Shown: positions 28,401 through 51,765 of the stretch, piece after piece | Layout: each line of letters starts with the position of its first letter | Position numbering within the stretch: the first letter of the stretch is position 1 | Sequence record: NC_048196.1 | Direction: 5' to 3' (one strand) | DNA length: 64,000 bases | Source: Escherichia phage vB_EcoM_Schickermooser | Program-made: the position numbers and the translations under genes | Notes under the pieces: model-generated | The model's database searches: none | Told to the model about the DNA's origin: nothing | What the model saw: only the letters and a program-made list of their open reading frames with translations

Positions 28401-31076
28401 ATGTTTCCAATTCCAATATTTACTATTATGACCAGCACTGGTGTCGTTCCTCTGCCAGCAGGTATTGTTAAAAAAGTAATCACTCTAGATTACCCAGATA
28501 ATGCTGGCAATTCTAATAGCAGTTTAGCAATTTTGCTTAATGATGGTAGATTGTTTACTCAAGGCGCAAACCTTTTTGGTGAGATTGCAGATGGAACTCG
28601 TAGTGCACGATTCAATAATTTCCACTTAGCTTCTACTGTAGTAGCGGATGTGTTTACCGCAGATCGTTGTTTTGTTATTAAAACTAACAGTGGGGGATGG
28701 CAATATTCAGGATTGACAGCAGGGTTGGTAGGATCTATAGCAGCAGGTGGTACGGATGCATGTGTAACCACTTGGACCAGCTTTCCATCTGTAATAACAG
28801 GGACTATCTCTTTAGCCAATCTTAAAGAGGTTAAGGGAGGATATAACAATACTCTCTGGTTAATGAATAGTGGTGTTCTTTATGGATCGGGTCAAAACAC
28901 AGTAGGCAGTTTAGGTGCAAGCACTACTAACGAAGTTTCTACTCCTCGTCAGATAACAAGCGCAGCAGTTGCTTTTGATGCAGGTTACAACCAATGTTCT
29001 TATGTCAACAATGTGGGAACCTTGCGTGTTTGTGGAGCCAGTAAAGGTTTAGCAGGTAATAATAACACAACAACAGCTTTTGTCAATGCCAAGATATCCG
29101 CTACTGAAACAGTGTATGTCAAAGATTACATCAATACAGTTTCCCAGACAATAGTTGTAGGAGATACCTCCGGTGGCACGGGTACAGTAAACTACTTATA
29201 TGTTAGATCTAATACAGAAACAACCTACACTAAACTGGATACCTTTGCAGCAGGTTTCTCAACATGGAAGTTTCCACCAAGCCGCCACTCTTTTTTCGTT
29301 GGGATTAATAATTCCTTGTGGGCTATTGGTAAGAACTACACTGCAAACTTAGGTTTGGGGTATGATTCTGCGAGCGGAGATCCACTCCAAGTGGGAAAAC
29401 CAGTTAAACCTGAAGGAGTGGGTTCTTGGGATATAAACAAGCTCACAAGCGTTCATACGCTGAATATGGATGTTACTAACCAATTAGGTTATCAAGGAAC
29501 CTTTTTCGTTTATAATGGAGATATGTATTATTCCGGTATTTGGAAAGATGGGAAAGCCTCGTATCTGTTCAATAGTGGTCTAAACTATAATAAATTCACA
29601 CCAATAGCAAGCTCCGTGATTACGGGCGATATTCTGGCAACTGGCTTAACTACAGATTCTTTAGGAATTTGTATTGTAGGTGGAACTAAACAGTTGACAC
29701 ATTCTGTTAGCCCAGAAGGAGGTAAACTTTTCAATATTAAATACACTTCTTCTGCCCCTGCAAACATGACAATATCATCTACTGGTTTAATGACTTTCCA
29801 TGCAGAAGGTGGTTTTGATGCAGGTATGACAGCCTTAAACGCTGAAGGAACAACTTTATCAGATACCTCTGGAGGATATGCTTCAACATTGAGCGTTTAC
29901 ACCCCTAGCTTATCTGCGATGGATGTAGGAACAACACAAACAATGGTAGCAGAAATAACGCCAACAGGAGCAGCAAGCTTACCTGGTATGGTTGTTGAGT
30001 ATTTCTCTAATGACCCTACGGTAGCAACAGTTGACCCCGTTACAGGCGTTATTACAGCGGTTGCTGATGGGGATTGTCGTATCGGTTGTAGAGCAACTTA
30101 TCAAGGTGTGGTAACTGCCGAAGATAGTTCTTATCTCGCAGTGAATGCTGTGGTGATTGTGATGGACTATGATTTGACGCAAGAAACTATTCCAACGGAT
30201 GTAAAGGTCAATAGGAGTAACCGTTATGCCAGGGCTTCTGGAGATATCCTTGTACCTACAGAGAGTTCTGCTCCCGTAGCACCTTTAGAATATGTTGGTA
30301 CAACTCCACAAGGTAGACGTGTTGTAGCAGCCAACCGTACACATATCTTTATCAACAATAACTTGACAACAGCTTCCCCGTGGTTGAAGACGAACTTGAC
30401 AGTCACAGCATCAACAATCAACTCTCCGGTTGGAACTACGGCTAACACTTACAAGTTAACACCTTCTACAACTTCAGGACAACATATTTTATCAGCAGTG
30501 AATACAGCCTCTGATATTACAGCAGGTAAGCACTGGGCGGCATCCGTATTCTTGAAGACAGACGGGATCACTAAAGTTAAACTCAAATTGACTTCAGGAG
30601 ATGAGATTAACGAAGGGACTTATGATCTTGTAGCTGGAACATTTACAGGTGCAGATGCAAACATAATCGATATGGGGAATGGTTGGTATCGTGTAATTCT
30701 ACACAAAGTGACAGTTGCCAAACAAGCATCTATAACCTATGAGATTATAGCTTTGAATGCAAGTGGATCAGACACTTTCGCAGGAGATGGTACGGCAGGT
30801 CTTATTGCTTGGGTTCCACAGCTTGAGATGGGTGATATGACAAATCCAGTTTGGGCGGGGACACCATTTGTTTGTTCTTATGCACGAGACACTACCAGTG
30901 CTGTTACCTTCACTATTCCTAAGAATGGACATACTGGCGTGGACATTTACCACACCGATGGTACTGTGCAACGAGAGGTCTTCACTGGTACAGCTACAAC
31001 TTGGATGTTGACGTTCACCGCCGCAAGTGCGGATTGGGGATCGAAGTTCATTACAGGTTTGAAATATTACGACTAA
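28401..31076 (+). CDS. tail fiber / receptor-binding protein with bacterial Ig-like (Big_2-type) domain
   Basis: 891 aa; segment TPTGAASLPGMVVEYFSNDPTVATVDPVTGVITAVADGDCRIGCRATYQGV matches Big_2 pattern. Confidence 0.6.
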   Translation: MFPIPIFTIMTSTGVVPLPAGIVKKVITLDYPDNAGNSNSSLAILLNDGRLFTQGANLFGEIADGTRSARFNNFHLASTVVADVFTADRCFVIKTNSGGWQYSGLTAGLVGSIAAGGTDACVTTWTSFPSVITGTISLANLKEVKGGYNNTLWLMNSGVLYGSGQNTVGSLGASTTNEVSTPRQITSAAVAFDAGYNQCSYVNNVGTLRVCGASKGLAGNNNTTTAFVNAKISATETVYVKDYINTVSQTIVVGDTSGGTGTVNYLYVRSNTETTYTKLDTFAAGFSTWKFPPSRHSFFVGINNSLWAIGKNYTANLGLGYDSASGDPLQVGKPVKPEGVGSWDINKLTSVHTLNMDVTNQLGYQGTFFVYNGDMYYSGIWKDGKASYLFNSGLNYNKFTPIASSVITGDILATGLTTDSLGICIVGGTKQLTHSVSPEGGKLFNIKYTSSAPANMTISSTGLMTFHAEGGFDAGMTALNAEGTTLSDTSGGYASTLSVYTPSLSAMDVGTTQTMVAEITPTGAASLPGMVVEYFSNDPTVATVDPVTGVITAVADGDCRIGCRATYQGVVTAEDSSYLAVNAVVIVMDYDLTQETIPTDVKVNRSNRYARASGDILVPTESSAPVAPLEYVGTTPQGRRVVAANRTHIFINNNLTTASPWLKTNLTVTASTINSPVGTTANTYKLTPSTTSGQHILSAVNTASDITAGKHWAASVFLKTDGITKVKLKLTSGDEINEGTYDLVAGTFTGADANIIDMGNGWYRVILHKVTVAKQASITYEIIALNASGSDTFAGDGTAGLIAWVPQLEMGDMTNPVWAGTPFVCSYARDTTSAVTFTIPKNGHTGVDIYHTDGTVQREVFTGTATTWMLTFTAASADWGSKFITGLKYYD

Positions 31077-31112
31077 TAAAAAAGGGAACCCGCAAAGGTT
31101 CCCTTTTCTTTT
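31077..31112. terminator. bidirectional rho-independent terminator at convergence of late (+) and early (-) modules
   Basis: GGGAACC-cgcaaa-GGTTCCC hairpin flanked by AAAA upstream and TTTTCTTTT downstream. Confidence 0.7.
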
Positions 31113-31139
31113 ATAAAAACTCTTTATAAATCAATAAGA

Positions 31140-32027
31140 TCAGAATGGAATATCATCGTCGAAGTCCATTGGAGGTTCTTCTTGATTACTTGGAGTTGGT
31201 TCTGGTTGTGGTTCAGGTTTCTTAACTTCTTTCTTCTCTTCTTTCTTAGGCTGTTCTGCGGAACCACGAATGGCAGCAGCAACTTTATCAGACAGAGCCA
31301 GAACTTTACGAGCAGAATCAATCAGATCTTCTACAGAGACAGTCTTGATGGTATGGTCTTTACAAGCATTGAGAATAGCGTGACCAACAGATGCCCCAAG
31401 ATCATAATCATTAATATCAACGCCACGAGATTCAGCAATTTCAGATTTCAGCGTGACAGTTGCAGATTGAACAACCCCAGCGATATCGAAAGCATCGCCT
31501 TTAACACCATTACGAATCAGTTCCAGTGCACCATTTACTGCGTGACCAGTTTCCAGACCTACAGTATCACGTTTTTTATAGGACTGCTTAGGAGCAGCAT
31601 CGTTGGAACCTTTATTGCCAGAAGATTTGTTAGACTTCTGAACACCATCGGTAGACAATACTGTAATACGAGATTTTTTAGTATTGTAGTAAGTTTTACC
31701 GCCTTTATTATCAACGCGATCAATATCAATACTTACTTCTACACCTTTTTCAATAGTGATCCAATTATCACCTTCTTTGACTTGCAGGTTTTCATAACCT
31801 TCTTTCAGTTCAATGTCACCAAGAGAAATCCAAACACCTTTCTCATCTGGTTTAGCACCTTTCTCTTTCAGAACAAGAGAAGCTCGGTGAGTTGAAACAA
31901 TCGTTTTTCCTTCCCAATGGAAGGTTTTAGGTTCAGCGAATTTATCCAGTTTAACGTAGTCTACGATACCAGTTGCATAAGTTACGGTTTTGCCTTTACG
32001 ATCAGTTTCAGTATTAATTACGGACAT
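31140..32027 (-). CDS. ssb: single-stranded DNA-binding protein
   Basis: C-terminal acidic tail DFDDDIPF (bacterial/phage SSB C-terminal motif) preceded by Pro/Glu/Lys-rich linker. Confidence 0.7.
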   Translation of the reverse strand: MSVINTETDRKGKTVTYATGIVDYVKLDKFAEPKTFHWEGKTIVSTHRASLVLKEKGAKPDEKGVWISLGDIELKEGYENLQVKEGDNWITIEKGVEVSIDIDRVDNKGGKTYYNTKKSRITVLSTDGVQKSNKSSGNKGSNDAAPKQSYKKRDTVGLETGHAVNGALELIRNGVKGDAFDIAGVVQSATVTLKSEIAESRGVDINDYDLGASVGHAILNACKDHTIKTVSVEDLIDSARKVLALSDKVAAAIRGSAEQPKKEEKKEVKKPEPQPEPTPSNQEEPPMDFDDDIPF

Positions 32028-43546: not shown

Positions 43547-44068
43547 TTAACTCCCCTTTGGTAGATAGAAACCATGCACTTTATCTCGATAAACAAGACG
43601 CATATCACGCTCCCAGTGTGTCCTTATATTCCGTTTCTTGAAGTATAGAGCACCTTTAGTAACATCTAAAACAGACCGCAATTCAGGAAAATGTTTCTCT
43701 AAATAAAGTAAACGCTCCGCTATTGCTTTTGCTTCCTGCCACTTATCTTTCTCTGTCACGTTAAAAGTTTTCGCATATGAGAATTGCCCTTTCTGGAACA
43801 AGACTCCCTTGACTGTGTTAGGGAAGTAGGCATCATTTCTTCTGTTGATTACCACATTCCCAACGGCATTCATTCCTTTTTTACCCAGACCGCGACCTTC
43901 TGCGTAAATTGCACAAGCTAATAGAATTTTATCATTATATTGCTTTGTACATTTGTGAACTACTTTAGCGGTTTTTACGTTTGCAGCTTCGGCTTTCGCC
44001 ACAACAGGTGTAAATGTAAAAGCAGTTAAGGATAGTAACGCAACTGTTACAAAGTTTTTTATCAGCAA
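43547..44068 (-). CDS. cell wall hydrolase, SleB-like, with N-terminal signal peptide (candidate endolysin)
   Basis: Signal-like N-terminus (VTVALLSLTAFTFTPVVAKA); AIYAEGRG...GMNAVGNVVINRRN...GQFS matches SleB-like signature. Confidence 0.65.
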   Translation of the reverse strand: MLIKNFVTVALLSLTAFTFTPVVAKAEAANVKTAKVVHKCTKQYNDKILLACAIYAEGRGLGKKGMNAVGNVVINRRNDAYFPNTVKGVLFQKGQFSYAKTFNVTEKDKWQEAKAIAERLLYLEKHFPELRSVLDVTKGALYFKKRNIRTHWERDMRLVYRDKVHGFYLPKGS

Positions 44069-44168: not shown

Positions 44169-44771
44169 TTATGGACATTCATACCATTCTTTTTTACCAC
44201 CGAAGGCCATCACCACATCGCAAATATCCAGACCAGCTTTACCTACACCATATGCTTTCAGCTTCCATTCTCCATCTTCACGAACCAGGGAAGCCACGTG
44301 GCAGATTGTGTTGCCAGCTACTTCAGGAGCCAGGAAGTCAAAATCCAGAATTTCCACATTACGCTCGGAGTCGAAGATTTTAAGCATACCTTCAGAAGCA
44401 TGACCAAAACGTTTCAGACCTGTATCATCATCAATAGTCAGAACAAAGGCAATCTCTTGTGCATCAGGAGAGATTTTAGCCAGAGTAATATCAATCTGCT
44501 CCATGCTGCCAGTTCCATCACGAACATCGTCACCAGCAAAGGTAGAACGTTCAGGATCAAACTTATTAGCATAGCAAACCAGATGACGTGCAGACAGCAT
44601 TTCAGGATTGCCAGCGGCATTGTGACGACAAACCAGTGCACTTACATCCAGATCCAGTTTAGAATCAGATTTCCAAGAGAATTCCAGGCGTAGTTCTTTC
44701 AGAGCCGGAGCAACTTTCTTCAGGGAAATTTTTTCGCTAGAGCCTTTTTTCAGGGAAATTTTATCAGTCAT
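44169..44771 (-). CDS. terD: TerD-family stress-response protein
   Basis: N-terminal ISLKKG...ISLKK, DLDVSALVC, and C-terminal EDGEWKLKAYGVGKAGL match TerD-domain signatures. Confidence 0.85.
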   Translation of the reverse strand: MTDKISLKKGSSEKISLKKVAPALKELRLEFSWKSDSKLDLDVSALVCRHNAAGNPEMLSARHLVCYANKFDPERSTFAGDDVRDGTGSMEQIDITLAKISPDAQEIAFVLTIDDDTGLKRFGHASEGMLKIFDSERNVEILDFDFLAPEVAGNTICHVASLVREDGEWKLKAYGVGKAGLDICDVVMAFGGKKEWYECP

Positions 44772-44786: not shown

Positions 44787-45056
44787 TTATTTAAGTGTAA
44801 TACCAGTTACAGTCAATTCTACTTCCAAAAGCTTAGATGTGTTTTGGATTGCTACTAATTGTGCATGATGGTTTAGTTCTACAGCAGAATAATCATTTTC
44901 CCCATCATCTACTTTTAAATAAACAATTACTTCACTAAGGTCTAAACCATTTTCGTCAAATGCATTTTCATAGACGAAAGTATCTCCTACATCCAAATCT
45001 TTAATGGTAAGGCATCGTTTATTTACTTTTTGCTCATCAATTTCGAAGTTTAACAC
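44787..45056 (-). CDS. hypothetical protein, paralog B of 46078..46356
   Basis: Shares DLDVGDTFVYENAFDENGLD and EVELTVTGITLK with paralog A. Confidence 0.45.
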   Translation of the reverse strand: MLNFEIDEQKVNKRCLTIKDLDVGDTFVYENAFDENGLDLSEVIVYLKVDDGENDYSAVELNHHAQLVAIQNTSKLLEVELTVTGITLK

Positions 45057-45285
45057 TTCTTCCTCCTAATGTTATCTCCGGTTTGTATATACGAAGAATT
45101 ATAGCATTTTCATTTTCTTTGTCAACCCATTCTTCATAATCAGGCCATACATGAATCTCTACTCTACTTACAATATCTTCCATCCGCACAGTCCCAATGA
45201 AATATTCTTTGAGACTGCGCATAATGAAAGCTTCTCTCTCGCGCCAATAATTTTCTACGACTTGAGAGGCAAGCTCGTCGATCAT
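45037..45285 (-). CDS. hypothetical protein
   Basis: 82 aa. Confidence 0.35.
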   Translation of the reverse strand: MIDELASQVVENYWREREAFIMRSLKEYFIGTVRMEDIVSRVEIHVWPDYEEWVDKENENAIILRIYKPEITLGGRSVKLRN

Positions 45286-46076
45286 TTTTTAGCACCTACT
45301 TTAACAACCCACTCTCCGAACTCTTCAGATAAGAGTTTGTCATAAAGCTCTGAATCTGTCAAGTCTAAATCTTTAATGCCAATAAAACCAACATTGTCAT
45401 AAGCATTTGCCAGTTCTTTCAGGAAGCTGAACTTCTCATTACCAACGCCAACCATGAACCAATAGATAGGCTTATTCTTATTCTCTTCAATAAGACGACG
45501 AACAGCACTAGGATCACCATTCTCACCGTCTGTCTGGAAGAATACAACGCCAGGAGTAACATCAGCACCTGGTTCAGATACAGCTACAACTTTTTCACGC
45601 TCTACCGATACTGTTTCAGTTTTACCAAGCAGACGATTAAAGAAGCCTTTCTTTGGAGCCTCCTCTTGTACCACTTGTTTAGTGGTAACATATTTGGTAA
45701 CAGTGCCAAAATACTCATCGTAGATATCTGCCATTACAGGGGCGTAATTTGTTCCACCTCCGATACGAACATTACGCATACATTTACCAACGTAGTCATC
45801 GTAAACGTCTGCTGTTGCTGGAGTAAGCTCTTGAGAACTCGTATTGAAGGCCCACATGTCAATTTGTTCATTATCGTCGAACAGCATACCAAAAGGAAGC
45901 AGTTTACCTACAAAATCACTCACTACCCCACGAGTATATAGACCATGCATACTACCAGAAATATCTAGAGCACATGCTACACGAAGAACAATCTTACCTT
46001 CGTTCAGGTTCTTATTCTTTTTCAGAGAGAAAGCAAGGTTTTCTTGACGTTTTTTCAGGCTGATTTTCTCGGACAT
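45282..46076 (-). CDS. von Willebrand factor A domain protein (TerF/TerY-like)
   Basis: MIDAS motif DISGSM; N-terminal EKISLKK...SLKK resembles TerD leader. Confidence 0.6.
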   Translation of the reverse strand: MSEKISLKKRQENLAFSLKKNKNLNEGKIVLRVACALDISGSMHGLYTRGVVSDFVGKLLPFGMLFDDNEQIDMWAFNTSSQELTPATADVYDDYVGKCMRNVRIGGGTNYAPVMADIYDEYFGTVTKYVTTKQVVQEEAPKKGFFNRLLGKTETVSVEREKVVAVSEPGADVTPGVVFFQTDGENGDPSAVRRLIEENKNKPIYWFMVGVGNEKFSFLKELANAYDNVGFIGIKDLDLTDSELYDKLLSEEFGEWVVKVGAKK

Positions 46077-46077
46077 A

Positions 46078-46356
46078 TTATTTCTCCTTCTTAAGTGTAA
46101 TATTGGTAACTTCTAAATCTACTTCCACCATATTTGTATCTGGTGGGATGCAATGAGTATAGCCTCGTTGTGCTAGTGATCCATTAATACAGATCGCACT
46201 GTTTGTGGAATTTTTAATGAACACCAAGTTACGGTAGGTATCCAACCCTGCGTCTTCATAGGCATCATAATACATGAATGTGTCCCCTATGCCAAGGTCT
46301 TCGAAAGCAATAGGTAAATCCTGACACTTTTCTTCTTGAATATTGAATCTAAACAC
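46078..46356 (-). CDS. hypothetical protein, paralog A of 44787..45056
   Basis: GTG start at 46356 with GGAGG RBS gives 92 aa aligned with paralog B; track ATG 46422 would overlap upstream gene by 74 nt. Confidence 0.4.
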   Translation of the reverse strand: MFRFNIQEEKCQDLPIAFEDLGIGDTFMYYDAYEDAGLDTYRNLVFIKNSTNSAICINGSLAQRGYTHCIPPDTNMVEVDLEVTNITLKKEK

Positions 46357-46912
46357 GCATACCTCCTCTACCAATTTTGAAGCCCAAATCGTAAGCTTCC
46401 TTAGTGATCTTTTGTAACTCACTTATAGGAAGTGTTACAAGAGGATCATCTTCTTCAATTTCCATCTTGTCATCTTCTGTTTCAATGAGAGTATTATGCA
46501 CTTTGTGATAAGGGTTGTCAACACGTTTAAACTTATTCTTTTCTGTGCTGAAAAAACAATCTGGATCTTCTTCGCCATCACCCCAACCTTGGTTAGGATC
46601 TCCGTCAGATTGTTCTGTAGGGATTTCACCTGTAAAATACTCTTCCAGCACCATAGCGATACCGTCCCTTGGATTCGAGGAATGCATTAAATCACAAACC
46701 TTACCCCAATCCATAGCCCATTCGAACCGTTCACGAACGCCATTTTCATCCTCCTTTCCAGAGAAAACACAACCATAACTATCATAGTTGCCATACATCT
46801 CTTCAATAACAACACCATCCTTCAAAAGAAAGAGATAGCAAGGTGATCCGTCGAAAGAAGTAGAAAGGGCAGCTTTGCCCGATTCCTTACACAAAAAGCT
46901 AAAACAACCCAT
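46349..46912 (-). CDS. hypothetical acidic protein
   Basis: 187 aa, D/E-rich. Confidence 0.4.
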   Translation of the reverse strand: MGCFSFLCKESGKAALSTSFDGSPCYLFLLKDGVVIEEMYGNYDSYGCVFSGKEDENGVRERFEWAMDWGKVCDLMHSSNPRDGIAMVLEEYFTGEIPTEQSDGDPNQGWGDGEEDPDCFFSTEKNKFKRVDNPYHKVHNTLIETEDDKMEIEEDDPLVTLPISELQKITKEAYDLGFKIGRGGMRV

Positions 46913-47109
46913 TACAAACCCTCCTTCAGATTATCAAGAGCTACAGTGGTTTCACAAAATTCTCCATACGCTTTATGATGTTCTAGAAAAGCTTCAGGTC
47001 CACCCCAATCATTATCTTGTGTATTCCAACCATCAATAAAAGCATCTTCAATGATTGTGATCAGTTCCTGTCGAGTCAACGTAATGGTATCAGGTTTTGG
47101 ATTATGCAT
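46912..47109 (-). CDS. hypothetical small acidic protein
   Basis: 65 aa. Confidence 0.35.
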   Translation of the reverse strand: MHNPKPDTITLTRQELITIIEDAFIDGWNTQDNDWGGPEAFLEHHKAYGEFCETTVALDNLKEGL

Positions 47110-47275
47110 CTTCTTTCTCCTCTAAAATATGAAACCCATAGCTACAATAGTCCTGAAAGGTTTCGTGTGCAAGATCTTCTATATCCTCTTGAGACATATC
47201 ATCTTCAATTTCGATATCCACAACCTCATTGCATCCACACCAAGCAGTTTCAATATTCACTCGTAAAGTTTTCAT
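47102..47275 (-). CDS. hypothetical small acidic protein (57 aa, not in ORF track)
   Basis: ATG overlaps upstream stop (ATGA); very acidic. Confidence 0.35.
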   Translation of the reverse strand: MKTLRVNIETAWCGCNEVVDIEIEDDMSQEDIEDLAHETFQDYCSYGFHILEEKEDA

Positions 47276-47469
47276 TCTTCTTCCTCATTGAAGTCAATAT
47301 CTGCAAGGAGTTGAAATTTACGGAAGTTACGACAACCTTCATAAATATAACAATCACGACAAACTGCTAGAACACTTGGGGGATATATGCCTCCCATCGG
47401 TGCGAATCGTTTTTCGTCATCATAACGGACACCAATGTCTTCATCAATTATATAGATACGGATTCTCAT
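47272..47469 (-). CDS. hypothetical small Cys-containing protein
   Basis: 65 aa. Confidence 0.35.
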   Translation of the reverse strand: MRIRIYIIDEDIGVRYDDEKRFAPMGGIYPPSVLAVCRDCYIYEGCRNFRKFQLLADIDFNEEEE

Positions 47470-48578
47470 TTACCAAGCCCTCGTTTCACAGCAGCTACCA
47501 TCCCGTCTTCCAGAGATTGAACTTCATTAATATAATCAACACGAGCAGCACGGGCTTCCGTATTGATGCGGTTAGTTTCTTCCAACATCTTAACCAAGTT
47601 TTCCTGATCGTGACGCAGAGTTTCAATATCCAACACTTGACGGTTAGCCAGTGCTGCTGCTTCGATCTGATTCTGTGTGGCAAGATCGCTACCCAGTTTA
47701 ATTGCCAGGTTAAATTCATCAAGAACGTTATTCTGCGTCTCTGCTGCTTTCATTTGACGTAAGCTCTCGATATACATTGAGAAGTTAGCAGAGTAAGCAG
47801 GAATAACATTATTTACTATGTTACGCGCAGATCGCATTAAGCTTGCAGAAACTTTTTGCATACCTTGCACACGTGGTCCCATTTGGACACACAGTAGGCG
47901 CAATGCTTTTAAATCGGCAATACGAATCTCCAGAAGATCCAAAGTATCTCGGATCACTTGTCGCTGTTCTACTGCATCTTCTGGAAGAGCAGCCAAAGCT
48001 TGTTCTTCTTTTTCATAGGTTGCTGTTAGAAGCTGCATATCTCGGTTCAAACTTGCAGCATATTGTCCAATAGCTTGATGCAGTTTTTCAAGATATACCA
48101 AGGAATCTTCTTCTTTGCGAATATCCATTTGAAGGTTCTTTACCAACTCTTCAATACGGTTATTAACATTATCAAACTCCCCAAACAGGTCTTCTTTCAT
48201 ACCCATAACTTTTTTAATGAGTTTAGTAATACCTTTGCTTTGTTTAATAGAGTTTGGATCAAGTTGTTTTGCCTGTTTAATCAAAGCTGTGAGTCGTTCA
48301 CTCATCTGATCGCCTTGATTACTACGTTGATGTTTTAATACCTCGGCATTCAAGGAACGCAAGGTTGTCCCTGCCTCTGCCCCGATCTCTTCGATCTCTT
48401 GTCGGGTCATAGAAGGCAAAACTGGGACTTCTTGCGGTGCGGCTGGTGCATAAACAGGACTGGCATCTAATACGCTTGGAGCGAATACAGATTTACTTGC
48501 ATCTGTTGTTGCAGTGAATACACTCATTTCAGACTTCTTCTGACCACCAGTAGCTGCTTTTAAAAACGGACTTGTCAT
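47466..48578 (-). CDS. TelA-like (toxic anion resistance family) coiled-coil protein, tentative
   Basis: 370 aa, predominantly helical/coiled-coil, size and context (between terC and terD) consistent with TelA/KlaA family; not motif-verified. Confidence 0.4.
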   Translation of the reverse strand: MTSPFLKAATGGQKKSEMSVFTATTDASKSVFAPSVLDASPVYAPAAPQEVPVLPSMTRQEIEEIGAEAGTTLRSLNAEVLKHQRSNQGDQMSERLTALIKQAKQLDPNSIKQSKGITKLIKKVMGMKEDLFGEFDNVNNRIEELVKNLQMDIRKEEDSLVYLEKLHQAIGQYAASLNRDMQLLTATYEKEEQALAALPEDAVEQRQVIRDTLDLLEIRIADLKALRLLCVQMGPRVQGMQKVSASLMRSARNIVNNVIPAYSANFSMYIESLRQMKAAETQNNVLDEFNLAIKLGSDLATQNQIEAAALANRQVLDIETLRHDQENLVKMLEETNRINTEARAARVDYINEVQSLEDGMVAAVKRGLGK

Positions 48579-50790: not shown

Positions 50791-51765
50791 TTAAACAGCA
50801 GCTTGTTCTTTTTCAGGGAAGATAAAGCTTGCAATAACACCAAGAGCTAATGTGCCTAGAACAATCATCAGACTTACGTTAGGGGAAATATCATGCGGAA
50901 GGAATGACCACTTGGCATGAAGTGTTTCACCGAACGGGTGATACATAAGTTTAGCACCAACAAACACCAGAACCACAGCAACAGCTTTCTCTAAGTGAAC
51001 CAAATATTTCACAGCTACACTTAACACAAAGAAAAGTGCACGTAAACCAAGAACAGCCATCAGCATTGCAGAATAAACTAGCAGAGGTTCTTGTGTCACA
51101 CCGATCACAGCCGGAACTGAATCAAAAGAGAAGACAATATCTGTAAGCTCAATAACAAACACACAAAGAAGAGCAGGAGTTGCATATTTAATACCATTCT
51201 TAATGGTAATGAACTTTTCACCATCCAGTGCATTGTGCACAGGCAGAACTTTACCTACTAAACGAACAGCCCAATGCTTAGAGTAATCAATATCCTCTTC
51301 TTCGTCACAACCTTTGATGATAGCCACGGCAGACCAAGCTACAATCAAACCGAACAACACTTGGACCGACCAATGAAGGTTAAACAAAGCGGTCCCTGCT
51401 GCAACAAAAATACCTCGGAAAACAATGGCTCCTGCAATCCCCCAAAGTAAAATCTTATGTTGGAGATGTGTGCTCTTAATTCCAAAGCTTGCAAAAATTG
51501 CCATGAACACCATCAGGTTATCTACAGAAAGACTCTTTTCCAACACATAGCCGCTTAGGAAAAGCGCGGCAAACTCTTTACCATGTTCTACCCAAATGAA
51601 TGCGTAATATCCTAAAGCTAAAGCAATCCAAAAAACAGACCAAAGCAAAGCAGATTTAATTCCAATTTCTTTATTCTCTTTATGACCAAAGAAATCGATA
51701 CCAATAGACAATGCTAAAATACCAACTAAAACAACTACATCAATAATTGGGAAACCAAGTTGCAT
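50791..51765 (-). CDS. terC: TerC-family integral membrane protein
   Basis: Multi-pass membrane protein with EKSLSVDN and FSFDSVPAV motifs characteristic of TerC family. Confidence 0.85.
   Translation of the reverse strand: MQLGFPIIDVVVLVGILALSIGIDFFGHKENKEIGIKSALLWSVFWIALALGYYAFIWVEHGKEFAALFLSGYVLEKSLSVDNLMVFMAIFASFGIKSTHLQHKILLWGIAGAIVFRGIFVAAGTALFNLHWSVQVLFGLIVAWSAVAIIKGCDEEEDIDYSKHWAVRLVGKVLPVHNALDGEKFITIKNGIKYATPALLCVFVIELTDIVFSFDSVPAVIGVTQEPLLVYSAMLMAVLGLRALFFVLSVAVKYLVHLEKAVAVVLVFVGAKLMYHPFGETLHAKWSFLPHDISPNVSLMIVLGTLALGVIASFIFPEKEQAAV

What the first reader, a model, noticed from the sequence alone, without database searches (positions are those of the whole stretch)
44787..46356. 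Paralogous small proteins placed immediately upstream of vWA and TerD genes
ORFs 46078..46356 and 44787..45056 share conserved blocks (DLG[IV]GDTF.Y..A[YF][ED][DE][AN]GLD and EV[DE]L.VT.ITLK) and each directly precedes one of the two halves of a split TerF-like pair (vWA, then TerD). The duplicated partner arrangement suggests dedicated adaptor or chaperone subunits for each Ter component.
Basis: seen in the sequence. Interest (0 to 1): 0.45.

Follow-up and report, generated by a model that had tools for sequence, protein, structure and literature searches.

The report
Small partner proteins of phage Ter genes
Two related ~90-residue acidic proteins in a phAPEC8-like coliphage belong to a small, phage-only family of unknown function that is always encoded beside a vWA gene and a TerD gene, so it is probably an undescribed accessory part of the phage's tellurite-resistance-like (Ter) module, although the two-copy layout seen here is specific to one lineage.

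Summary
ORFs 46078..46356 and 44787..45056 (minus strand) are real genes and true paralogs: BLASTP gives 33% identity and E=8e-15, both match phrog_11278 end to end, and they share a predicted fold. The window is a Phapecoctavirus (phAPEC8-like) genome, where both are annotated as hypothetical proteins.

An exhaustive profile search found only about 20 clusters, all standalone proteins of 87-93 aa with no Pfam, NCBIfam or PADLOC match. AlphaFold gives a small SH3-like beta-barrel (pLDDT 84) with no close structural relative.

In every contig with context, a member lies beside a vWA-TerF-like gene, a TerD gene or both. Layout and copy number vary:
- vWA-S-TerD (most lineages, probably ancestral)
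- vWA-S-S-TerD
- S-vWA-TerD (phi92, 05F01)
- S-vWA-orf82-S-TerD (here)

Some phages with the same vWA and TerD have no S (FKP3, FBKp34, Caulobacter, Rhizobium and Pseudomonas phages).

In the two-copy phages, a perfectly conserved sigma-70 consensus promoter inside orf82 drives S_A-TerD. A second promoter-like site precedes S_B-vWA.

Functional linkage to the vWA/TerD pair is therefore well supported. "One dedicated adaptor per Ter component" is a lineage-specific elaboration, and physical binding is untested. Interest is moderate: this is a new variant of a known phage Ter-like module.

The parts
46078..46356 (-). S_B: 92-aa acidic small beta-barrel protein (phrog_11278), GTG start, directly upstream of vWA
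   Evidence: RBS GAGGAGG lies 5 nt before the GTG. The C-terminal KKEK codons contain the AAGGAG Shine-Dalgarno of the vWA gene. Orthologs start ATG/MF[RD]F.
44787..45056 (-). S_A: 89-aa paralog of S_B (33% identity), GTG start, directly upstream of TerD
   Evidence: Orthologs have ATG at the same codon. dN/dS is 0.26-0.40.
45282..46076 (-). vWA-TerF-like protein (264 aa) with an intact DxSxS MIDAS motif (LDISGSM)
   Evidence: PF10138 E=2.8e-37. The motif is conserved across loci.
45037..45285 (-). orf82: conserved 82-aa protein (phrog_22387) found only in two-copy phages; it carries the embedded promoter
   Evidence: Not related to S. The AlphaFold single-sequence model is unusable, pLDDT 53.
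45098..45125 (-). Perfect sigma-70 consensus promoter TTGACA-16-TGnTATAAT; the -10 element ends 42 nt upstream of the S_A start
   Evidence: Only exact match in the 64-kb window. Conserved at the same place in all fetched two-copy loci.
46493..46521 (-). Promoter-like site TTGACA-17-CATAAT, 137 nt upstream of S_B, inside the 187-aa gene
   Evidence: Conserved in L001-L003, L006 and L023-L025. phiWec181 instead has an intergenic TTGACA-17-TGgATAAT 36 nt before S_B.
44169..44771 (-). TerD-domain protein (200 aa)
   Evidence: PF02342 E=3.2e-28. Matches solved TerD 2kxt at E=1.5e-15. 81% identical to phi92 gp172.
47466..48578 (-). TelA-like protein of the same phage Ter-like gene block
   Evidence: PF05816 E=3.2e-33.
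50791..51765 (-). TerC/Alx-family membrane protein of the same block
   Evidence: TIGR03718 E=3.4e-95.
43547..44068 (-). SleB-like cell-wall hydrolase (Hydrolase_2); it lies just downstream of TerD in almost every S-containing locus long enough to show it
   Evidence: In phi92 and L026 one to three other genes intervene.
46349..46912 (-). 187-aa conserved hypothetical (phi92 gp175 homolog) upstream of S_B; a variable neighbour, absent in L015 and phiWec181

Best explanation
Proposal. S_A and S_B are two copies of a phage-restricted family ('S'). Its members are acidic, ~90-residue proteins with an SH3-like beta-barrel fold. S acts as an accessory, probably partner-binding, subunit of the phage's split TerF-like pair, which consists of a vWA protein with an intact MIDAS site and a TerD protein.

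Evolution. The ancestral layout was probably vWA-S-TerD, with one S serving the pair. In the ancestor of the phAPEC8/phi92 group the gene was duplicated. Phapecoctaviruses kept both copies and split them into two early, host-RNA-polymerase-dependent transcription units:
- promoter-S_B-vWA-orf82
- promoter (inside orf82)-S_A-TerD

Each Ter partner is therefore made together with its own S copy. phi92-like phages lost the pre-TerD copy.

Shown:
- paralogy and coding status
- fold class
- strict synteny
- copy-number and position variation
- conserved promoters
- faster evolution of S than of its partners

Inferred:
- that S physically binds vWA and/or TerD, for example by offering one of its conserved acidic residues (D/E25, D39) to the vWA MIDAS metal or by docking on TerD
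- that the whole TelA/TerC/vWA/TerD block serves membrane or ion-stress management or superinfection exclusion early in infection
For: Paralogy and family:
- BLASTP E=8e-15.
- Both copies match phrog_11278.
- The profile search of 1.84 billion representatives returns only ~20 standalone proteins of 87-93 aa.

Synteny: in all contexts recovered, S is adjacent to PF10138 vWA and/or PF02342 TerD. This holds in lineages where S identity to the window copies falls to 22-30% and other neighbours change.

Gene spacing is tight:
- 1-nt and 15-nt gaps in the window.
- 8-nt vWA/S overlaps in L008, L018, L027 and L029.

Fold and chemistry:
- AlphaFold mean pLDDT is 83.7.
- All members are acidic, pI 4.3-5.5.
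- Conserved polar positions are G24, D/E25, T26, D39, K48 and N58.
- The vWA MIDAS DxSxS motif is conserved in all partner vWAs.

Transcription units:
- A perfect TTGACA-16-TGnTATAAT promoter, unique in the 64-kb window, is conserved in all two-copy loci although S_A proteins are only 45-51% identical.
- A promoter-like site upstream of S_B is conserved in phi92 and others. phiWec181 has an intergenic equivalent.

Evolutionary scenario: in the neighbour-joining tree the pre-vWA copies form a clade (70% bootstrap) and the A-type copies form a clade (60%). The vWA-S-TerD lineages are basal.
Against: - No direct or predicted evidence of binding.
- S is dispensable in some phages. FKP3 has close vWA and TerD but no S. 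FBKp34 and the Caulobacter, Rhizobium, Pseudomonas and Lysinibacillus phages carry vWA-TerF-like genes without S; all but the Lysinibacillus phage also have an annotated TerD in the stretch examined.
- No acidic residue is strictly invariant: D/E25 in 19 of 21 members and D39 in 18 of 21. This weakens the MIDAS-ligand idea.
- S evolves 3-5 times faster than vWA and TerD. Between L015 and the window, S is 51% identical, against 83% for vWA and 90% for TerD. dN/dS is 0.17-0.40 for S, against 0.0-0.16 for the partners. That is unusual for a tightly co-adapted structural subunit.
- The tree rests on ~88 columns and has modest support.
Confidence: 0.5

Rival explanations
1. S is a regulator rather than a structural partner. 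It could be a small inhibitor or activity switch (antitoxin-like) that holds vWA and/or TerD in check. Alternatively, it could be an upstream cistron whose translation sets the amount of the downstream protein through translational coupling.
For: - S is always the immediately upstream cistron of vWA or TerD, with 1-15 nt gaps or overlaps.
- The vWA Shine-Dalgarno lies inside the last codons of the pre-vWA copies, and the K[KEG]EK tail is conserved only in those copies.
- Each copy is the first gene after a promoter.
- Loss of S is tolerated in FKP3.
Against: - A conserved, confidently folded domain under purifying selection across lineages only 22-30% identical argues for a protein-level role, not mere coupling.
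- In vWA-S-TerD lineages vWA lies upstream of S, so S cannot be a leader cistron for vWA there.
- There is no evidence that vWA or TerD is toxic.
Confidence: 0.2
2. S has a function unrelated to Ter. It would be a fast-evolving, acidic early protein aimed at a host or rival-phage target, such as an anti-defence factor or DNA mimic, that merely shares the early operon with vWA and TerD.
For: - All members are strongly acidic, with net charge -2 to -11.
- S is expressed from sigma-70-type early promoters.
- It evolves much faster than its neighbours.
- It is a phage-only orphan family with variable copy number.
- It is absent from some phages that keep vWA and TerD.
Against: - Adjacency to vWA and/or TerD is retained in every recovered context while other neighbours turn over. 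That is hard to explain by hitch-hiking.
- S was never found away from the pair. The window has only the two copies next to vWA and TerD.
- No PADLOC or anti-defence family match. This is a weak argument, because PADLOC holds defence models, not anti-defence models.
Confidence: 0.15
3. The similarity or the ORFs are artefacts, arising from chance similarity or non-coding DNA with wrong GTG start models.
For: - Both copies use GTG starts in this window.
- Neither has a Pfam match.
Against: - Pairwise E=8e-15.
- Full-length PHROG matches.
- Orthologs use ATG at the same codon.
- dN/dS is below 0.4.
- Confident AlphaFold model.
- About 20 diverged clusters of constant length.
Confidence: 0.01

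Closest known systems
PHROG family phrog_11278 (unknown function)
   Same: Both window proteins match the 92-position profile end to end, at E=1.6e-49 and 3.2e-44. Members are the 'hypothetical proteins' phAPEC8_00201/00204 and phi92 gp174.
   Different: The PHROG carries no function and no note of the vWA/TerD linkage. The family defined here is wider: metagenomic vWA-S-TerD lineages are only 22-35% identical to the window copies.
Abbreviated phage Ter operons (TelA, TerC, TerF-type vWA, TerD), described by Iyer et al. 2021, Viruses 13:63 (PMC7824862), and for Klebsiella phage phiKp34 (PMC8386662)
   Same: The window carries the same four components: TelA, TerC/Alx, vWA-TerF-like and TerD. 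The proposed roles (superinfection exclusion, stress tolerance) would apply equally.
   Different: Those descriptions list no small beta-barrel component. In the Caulobacter, Rhizobium and Pseudomonas phages TerC lies between vWA and TerD, and no S is present. In the S-bearing lineage S occupies that slot or precedes vWA, and it can be duplicated.
Bacterial TerF (TerD domain fused to a C-terminal vWA domain; Pfam PF10138 'vWA found in TerF C terminus')
   Same: The phage vWA matches PF10138 and the neighbouring gene is a TerD-domain protein, so the pair equals a split TerF.
   Different: The gene order is vWA then TerD, the reverse of the TerF domain order. The two are separate proteins with S, and here also orf82, between or before them. 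S has no detectable counterpart in bacteria: one search found only phage-like contigs, and one search found a single 18.6-kb contig binned in a MAG.
SH3-like small beta-barrel proteins (FeoA, C-terminal domain of DtxR/IdeR, HspQ/YccV, KOW and Tudor domains, ribosomal uL2 barrel)
   Different: Sequence identity is 2-19%. There is no Pfam or PDB sequence match, and Foldseek finds nothing significant in the PDB. S has an extra helix (residues 30-36) and conserved N- and C-terminal strands. Its genomic context is different.

Membership tests
phrog_11278 | Full-length match to the family HMM | tested here: met
   E=1.6e-49 (positions 1-92 of 92) and E=3.2e-44 (positions 1-89 of 92).
S family as defined here (vWA/TerD-linked small beta-barrel) | Standalone protein of ~87-93 aa matching the family profile (motifs M..F, L..G[DE]TF, GLD, YIK, A.ELN, V.V.L.V) | tested here: met
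S family as defined here (vWA/TerD-linked small beta-barrel) | Gene adjacent to a PF10138 vWA gene and/or a PF02342 TerD gene | tested here: met
   In the window, S_B is 1 nt before vWA and S_A is 15 nt before TerD. All other recovered contexts show the same adjacency.
SH3-like small beta-barrel fold | Five-stranded barrel superimposable on solved SH3-like, KOW or Tudor domains | tested here: inconclusive
FeoA (PF04023) and DtxR/IdeR SH3-like domain | Match to the Pfam family HMM | tested here: not met
   No Pfam match for any of 20 family members at E up to 0.1, apart from one chance DUF5006 hit.
TerD family (PF02342), as a possible degenerate TerD fragment | Match to the TerD HMM | tested here: not met
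   No match. The predicted fold is a small barrel, not the TerD beta-sandwich.
Known anti-phage defence components (PADLOC, including TerY-P) | Match to a PADLOC model | tested here: not met
   No hits for S_A, S_B, orf82, vWA, TerD, TelA or TerC.
   FKP3, FBKp34, CcrPW, Kremar and RHph_TM2_3B have vWA and TerD but no S. LysYB2 has vWA without S, and no TerD is annotated in the stretch examined.

The most novel reading that the evidence does not exclude
S is the variable, target-recognising subunit of a phage-encoded Ter-like machine made of the vWA MIDAS protein, the TerD calcium sensor, TelA and TerC. In this reading, its rapid evolution, changing copy number and acidic surface reflect an arms race with superinfecting phages or a host defence. 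Duplication into S_A and S_B, each with its own early promoter, would give the phage two specificities.
Probability: 0.12. Interest if true: 0.6.

Novelty: new variant of a known kind. Interest (0 to 1): 0.36.

Why it matters
- **An entry point into an unsolved system.** Ter/TelA/TerC/TerD genes are widespread in bacteria and phages, yet their mechanism is still unclear. A small protein that always travels with the vWA-TerD pair is a cheap experimental handle for pull-downs, co-structures and deletions. It could show how the vWA MIDAS site and TerD are engaged.
- **A natural experiment.** The lineages with no copy (FKP3), one copy (phi92, 05F01) and two copies (phAPEC8 group) are closely related coliphages that are easy to grow. 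They could be compared directly to find what S contributes.
- **Annotation.** The result gives a rationale for naming more than 100 'hypothetical protein' entries in Stephanstirmvirinae genomes. It also flags misannotations of the neighbouring genes.

Tried and rejected
- **Duplicated two-gene segment.** I tested whether orf82 is a diverged S copy, or the 3' part of the 187-aa gene duplicated together with S. hhalign of orf82 against the S profile gives probability 0.2%. BLASTP of orf82 against the 187-aa protein gives E=0.055. Rejected.
- **Second TerD in phi92.** gp171, the 200-aa gene after TerD, shows no similarity to TerD. Rejected.
- **Hidden S analogs in S-less phages.** Small ORFs next to vWA in FKP3, FBKp34 and CcrPW show no profile similarity to S. 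The HMM on six-frame translations gives E>3. Structural analogs cannot be excluded.
- **Fusions.** The two large proteins hit by the profile (P0034, P0036) are fn3 and Ig/cadherin repeat proteins, so the hits are spurious summed scores.
- **AlphaFold of orf82.** No diverse homologs were available. The model has pLDDT 53 and was not used.
  - The search for related loci with the broad alignments failed for lack of a conserved stretch.
  - IMG/VR yielded only 3 loci.
  - The genome scan found one MAG contig, probably phage.
- **Rfam.** No RNA family was found in the window, so there is no yybP-ykoY riboswitch before TerC.
- **Literature.** Searches found nothing on these small proteins. The 2012 Ter-system paper by Anantharaman, Iyer and Aravind could not be retrieved.
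- **MIDAS-ligand idea.** Kept only as a possibility, because no acidic residue is invariant.

Full report
**What the window is**

The 5.7 kb around the finding is 97.6-98.1% identical to more than 60 Phapecoctavirus genomes (phAPEC8, ESCO13, nieznany and others; subfamily Stephanstirmvirinae). All genes in this region lie on the minus strand. In transcription order they are:
- TerC/Alx (50791..51765; TIGR03718 E=3.4e-95)
- an SprT-like protein
- TelA (47466..48578)
- three very small ORFs
- a 187-aa conserved hypothetical (46349..46912)
- S_B (46078..46356)
- vWA-TerF-like (45282..46076)
- orf82 (45037..45285)
- S_A (44787..45056)
- TerD (44169..44771)
- a SleB-like cell-wall hydrolase (43547..44068)

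**Check of the observation**

The two small ORFs align end to end, with 33% identity, 54% positives and BLASTP E=8e-15. Both match PHROG 11278 over its full length.

Several results confirm the gene models.
- GenBank records annotate identical CDSs of 279 and 270 bp.
- Each GTG start follows a GGAGG-type ribosome-binding site by 5 nt.
- Orthologs in diverged phages use ATG at the same codon.
- dN/dS is 0.17-0.40, so the genes are under purifying selection, though weaker than for vWA (0.04-0.16) and TerD (0-0.14).

This conserved 82-aa gene lies between vWA and S_A and overlaps the S_A start by 20 nt. The window holds exactly two S copies.

**What the proteins are**

No Pfam, NCBIfam or PADLOC family matches them. 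Nor does any sequence in the PDB.

A word-indexed search found about 22 clusters. An exhaustive HMM search of 1.84 billion representatives found only about 20. All are standalone proteins of 87-93 aa. The two large hits are spurious matches to repeat proteins.

AlphaFold2 with a 21-sequence alignment gives a confident model, with mean pLDDT 83.7 and pTM 0.74.
- Foldseek finds nothing significant in the PDB.
- In BFVD the best match is the phAPEC8 A copy (TM 0.81-0.83), so both paralogs share the fold.

All members are acidic, with pI 4.3-5.5. The conserved polar positions are G24, D/E25, T26, D39, K48 and N58.

**Context in other genomes**

This is the decisive evidence. I recovered the neighbourhood of every representative cluster I could. 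In every case S lies beside a PF10138 vWA gene, a PF02342 TerD gene or both. Four layouts occur.

| Layout | Where seen |
|---|---|
| vWA-S-TerD-hydrolase, often with 8-nt overlaps | L008, L009, L010, L014, L017, L018, L026-L029 |
| vWA-S-S-TerD, two tandem paralogs | L011-L013 |
| S-vWA-TerD | phi92 and other Justusliebigviruses, Klebsiella phage 05F01 |
| S-vWA-orf82-S-TerD | window, phiWec181, PsgM04F, L015, L016, L024, L025 |

L007 starts at S-TerD, so its upstream side is unknown.

A neighbour-joining tree is weak, with ~88 columns. It groups the pre-vWA copies (70% bootstrap) and the A-type copies (60%), and it leaves the vWA-S-TerD lineages basal. This suggests that vWA-S-TerD is ancestral and that the duplication happened within the phAPEC8/phi92 group.

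The K[KEG]EK tail is found only in pre-vWA copies. It encodes the Shine-Dalgarno sequence of the vWA gene.

**Limits of the association**

S is not universal.
- Klebsiella phage FKP3 is a Justusliebigvirus whose vWA is 68% and TerD 86% identical to the window's. It has no S. It is also absent from the tblastn hit lists for both copies.
- FBKp34, Caulobacter CcrPW, Pseudomonas Kremar, Rhizobium RHph_TM2_3B and Lysinibacillus LysYB2 also lack S.
- In three of these (CcrPW, Kremar, RHph_TM2_3B) TerC sits between vWA and TerD.
- phi92 TerD is 81% identical to the window's and follows vWA directly, without an S_A.

A dedicated S is therefore not needed for TerD as such.

S also evolves much faster than its partners. 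Between L015 and the window, vWA is 83%, TerD 90% and the hydrolase 90% identical, while S_B and S_A are each 51%.

**Transcription units (found in passing, relevant to the interpretation)**

The only perfect sigma-70 consensus promoter in the 64-kb window lies at 45125..45098 on the minus strand, inside orf82. It reads TTGACA-16-TGnTATAAT, and its -10 element ends 42 nt upstream of the S_A start. The hexamers, spacing and extended -10 are conserved at the same place in every two-copy locus fetched, although the surrounding proteins have diverged.

A second site, TTGACA-17-CATAAT, lies 137 nt upstream of S_B. It is conserved in phi92 and others. phiWec181 lacks the 187-aa gene but has an intergenic TTGACA-17-TGgATAAT 36 nt before S_B. 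phi92 has a promoter-like TTGACT-17-TAAAAT in its vWA-TerD spacer.

In this lineage, then, each S copy most likely heads an early transcription unit with its downstream partner.

**Most likely mechanism**

S is best read as an accessory, probably partner-binding, subunit of the split TerF-like vWA/TerD pair. It was duplicated and divided between two expression units in Phapecoctaviruses.

The functional linkage rests on synteny, which I consider strong. Physical binding is inference, whether to the intact vWA MIDAS (LDISGSM) or to TerD.

The TerD calcium-binding loop is partly altered relative to solved TerD: GDGDDE becomes GTGSME.

I put about 0.5 on the accessory-subunit model, 0.2 on a regulatory or coupling role, 0.15 on an unrelated early function, and about 0.01 on artefact.

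**Comparison with what is known**

Abbreviated Ter operons in phages have been described and proposed to act in superinfection exclusion or stress tolerance (PMC7824862, PMC8386662). Those accounts mention no small barrel protein. The S family is catalogued only as a PHROG of unknown function.

The finding is therefore a new variant of a known phage module, not a new kind of system. Interest is moderate.

Noticed in passing
window 45098-45125 (minus strand), inside orf82: This is the only perfect sigma-70 consensus promoter in the 64-kb window (TTGACA-16-TGnTATAAT). It is embedded in a protein-coding gene, 42 nt upstream of S_A, and is conserved in all two-copy relatives. The codons W-V-D-K and A-I-I of orf82 double as the -35 and -10 elements.
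   Followed up: yes
window 43547-44068; L008, L011-L016, L018, L026-L029: A SleB-like Hydrolase_2 gene, annotated as endolysin, lies just downstream of TerD in almost every S-containing locus. It may belong to the same functional block, or simply to a conserved gene order.
   Followed up: partly
L019 (Klebsiella phage FKP3, PP895363.1 39683-46471): This close relative has vWA and TerD but no S and no gp175 homolog. Four unrelated small ORFs precede vWA. It is a natural S-null comparator.
   Followed up: partly
window 44169-44771 (TerD): Aligned to solved TerD (2kxt), the acidic calcium-binding loop GEGDGDDE is replaced by RDGTGSME. One calcium site may be weakened.
   Followed up: partly
window 46050-46076 and 44745-44771: vWA and TerD both start with a similar repeated N-terminal motif: M(S/T)(E/D)KISLKK...(I/F)SLKK.
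   Followed up: no
GenBank records PQ433349.1, PP895363.1, MG065650.1, OP562383.1, OR584014.1: Probable misannotations. vWA is called 'RNA-binding protein' (vB_Ec-G1) or 'tail protein' (FKP3), and TerD is called 'HNH endonuclease' (FKP3). Phages labelled Campylobacter, Acinetobacter or Pseudomonas are near-identical to these coliphages at this locus.
   Followed up: no
window 47102-47275: A 57-aa ORF between TelA and the 187-aa gene matches DUF7167 just below threshold (E=6.6e-5). The same small gene is present in L015.
   Followed up: no
L026 2095-2574; L029 1-296: Band_7 (SPFH/stomatin-like) genes lie near the vWA-S-TerD block in two metagenomic relatives. This fits a membrane-associated role for the module.
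   Followed up: no
window about 30000-32000: GC skew changes sign here, from positive before ~30 kb to negative after. This matches a switch of coding strand between two large gene blocks.
   Followed up: no
L013 710-737: A second perfect TTGACA-N-TATAAT promoter lies directly upstream of the TerC gene in this metagenomic relative.
   Followed up: no
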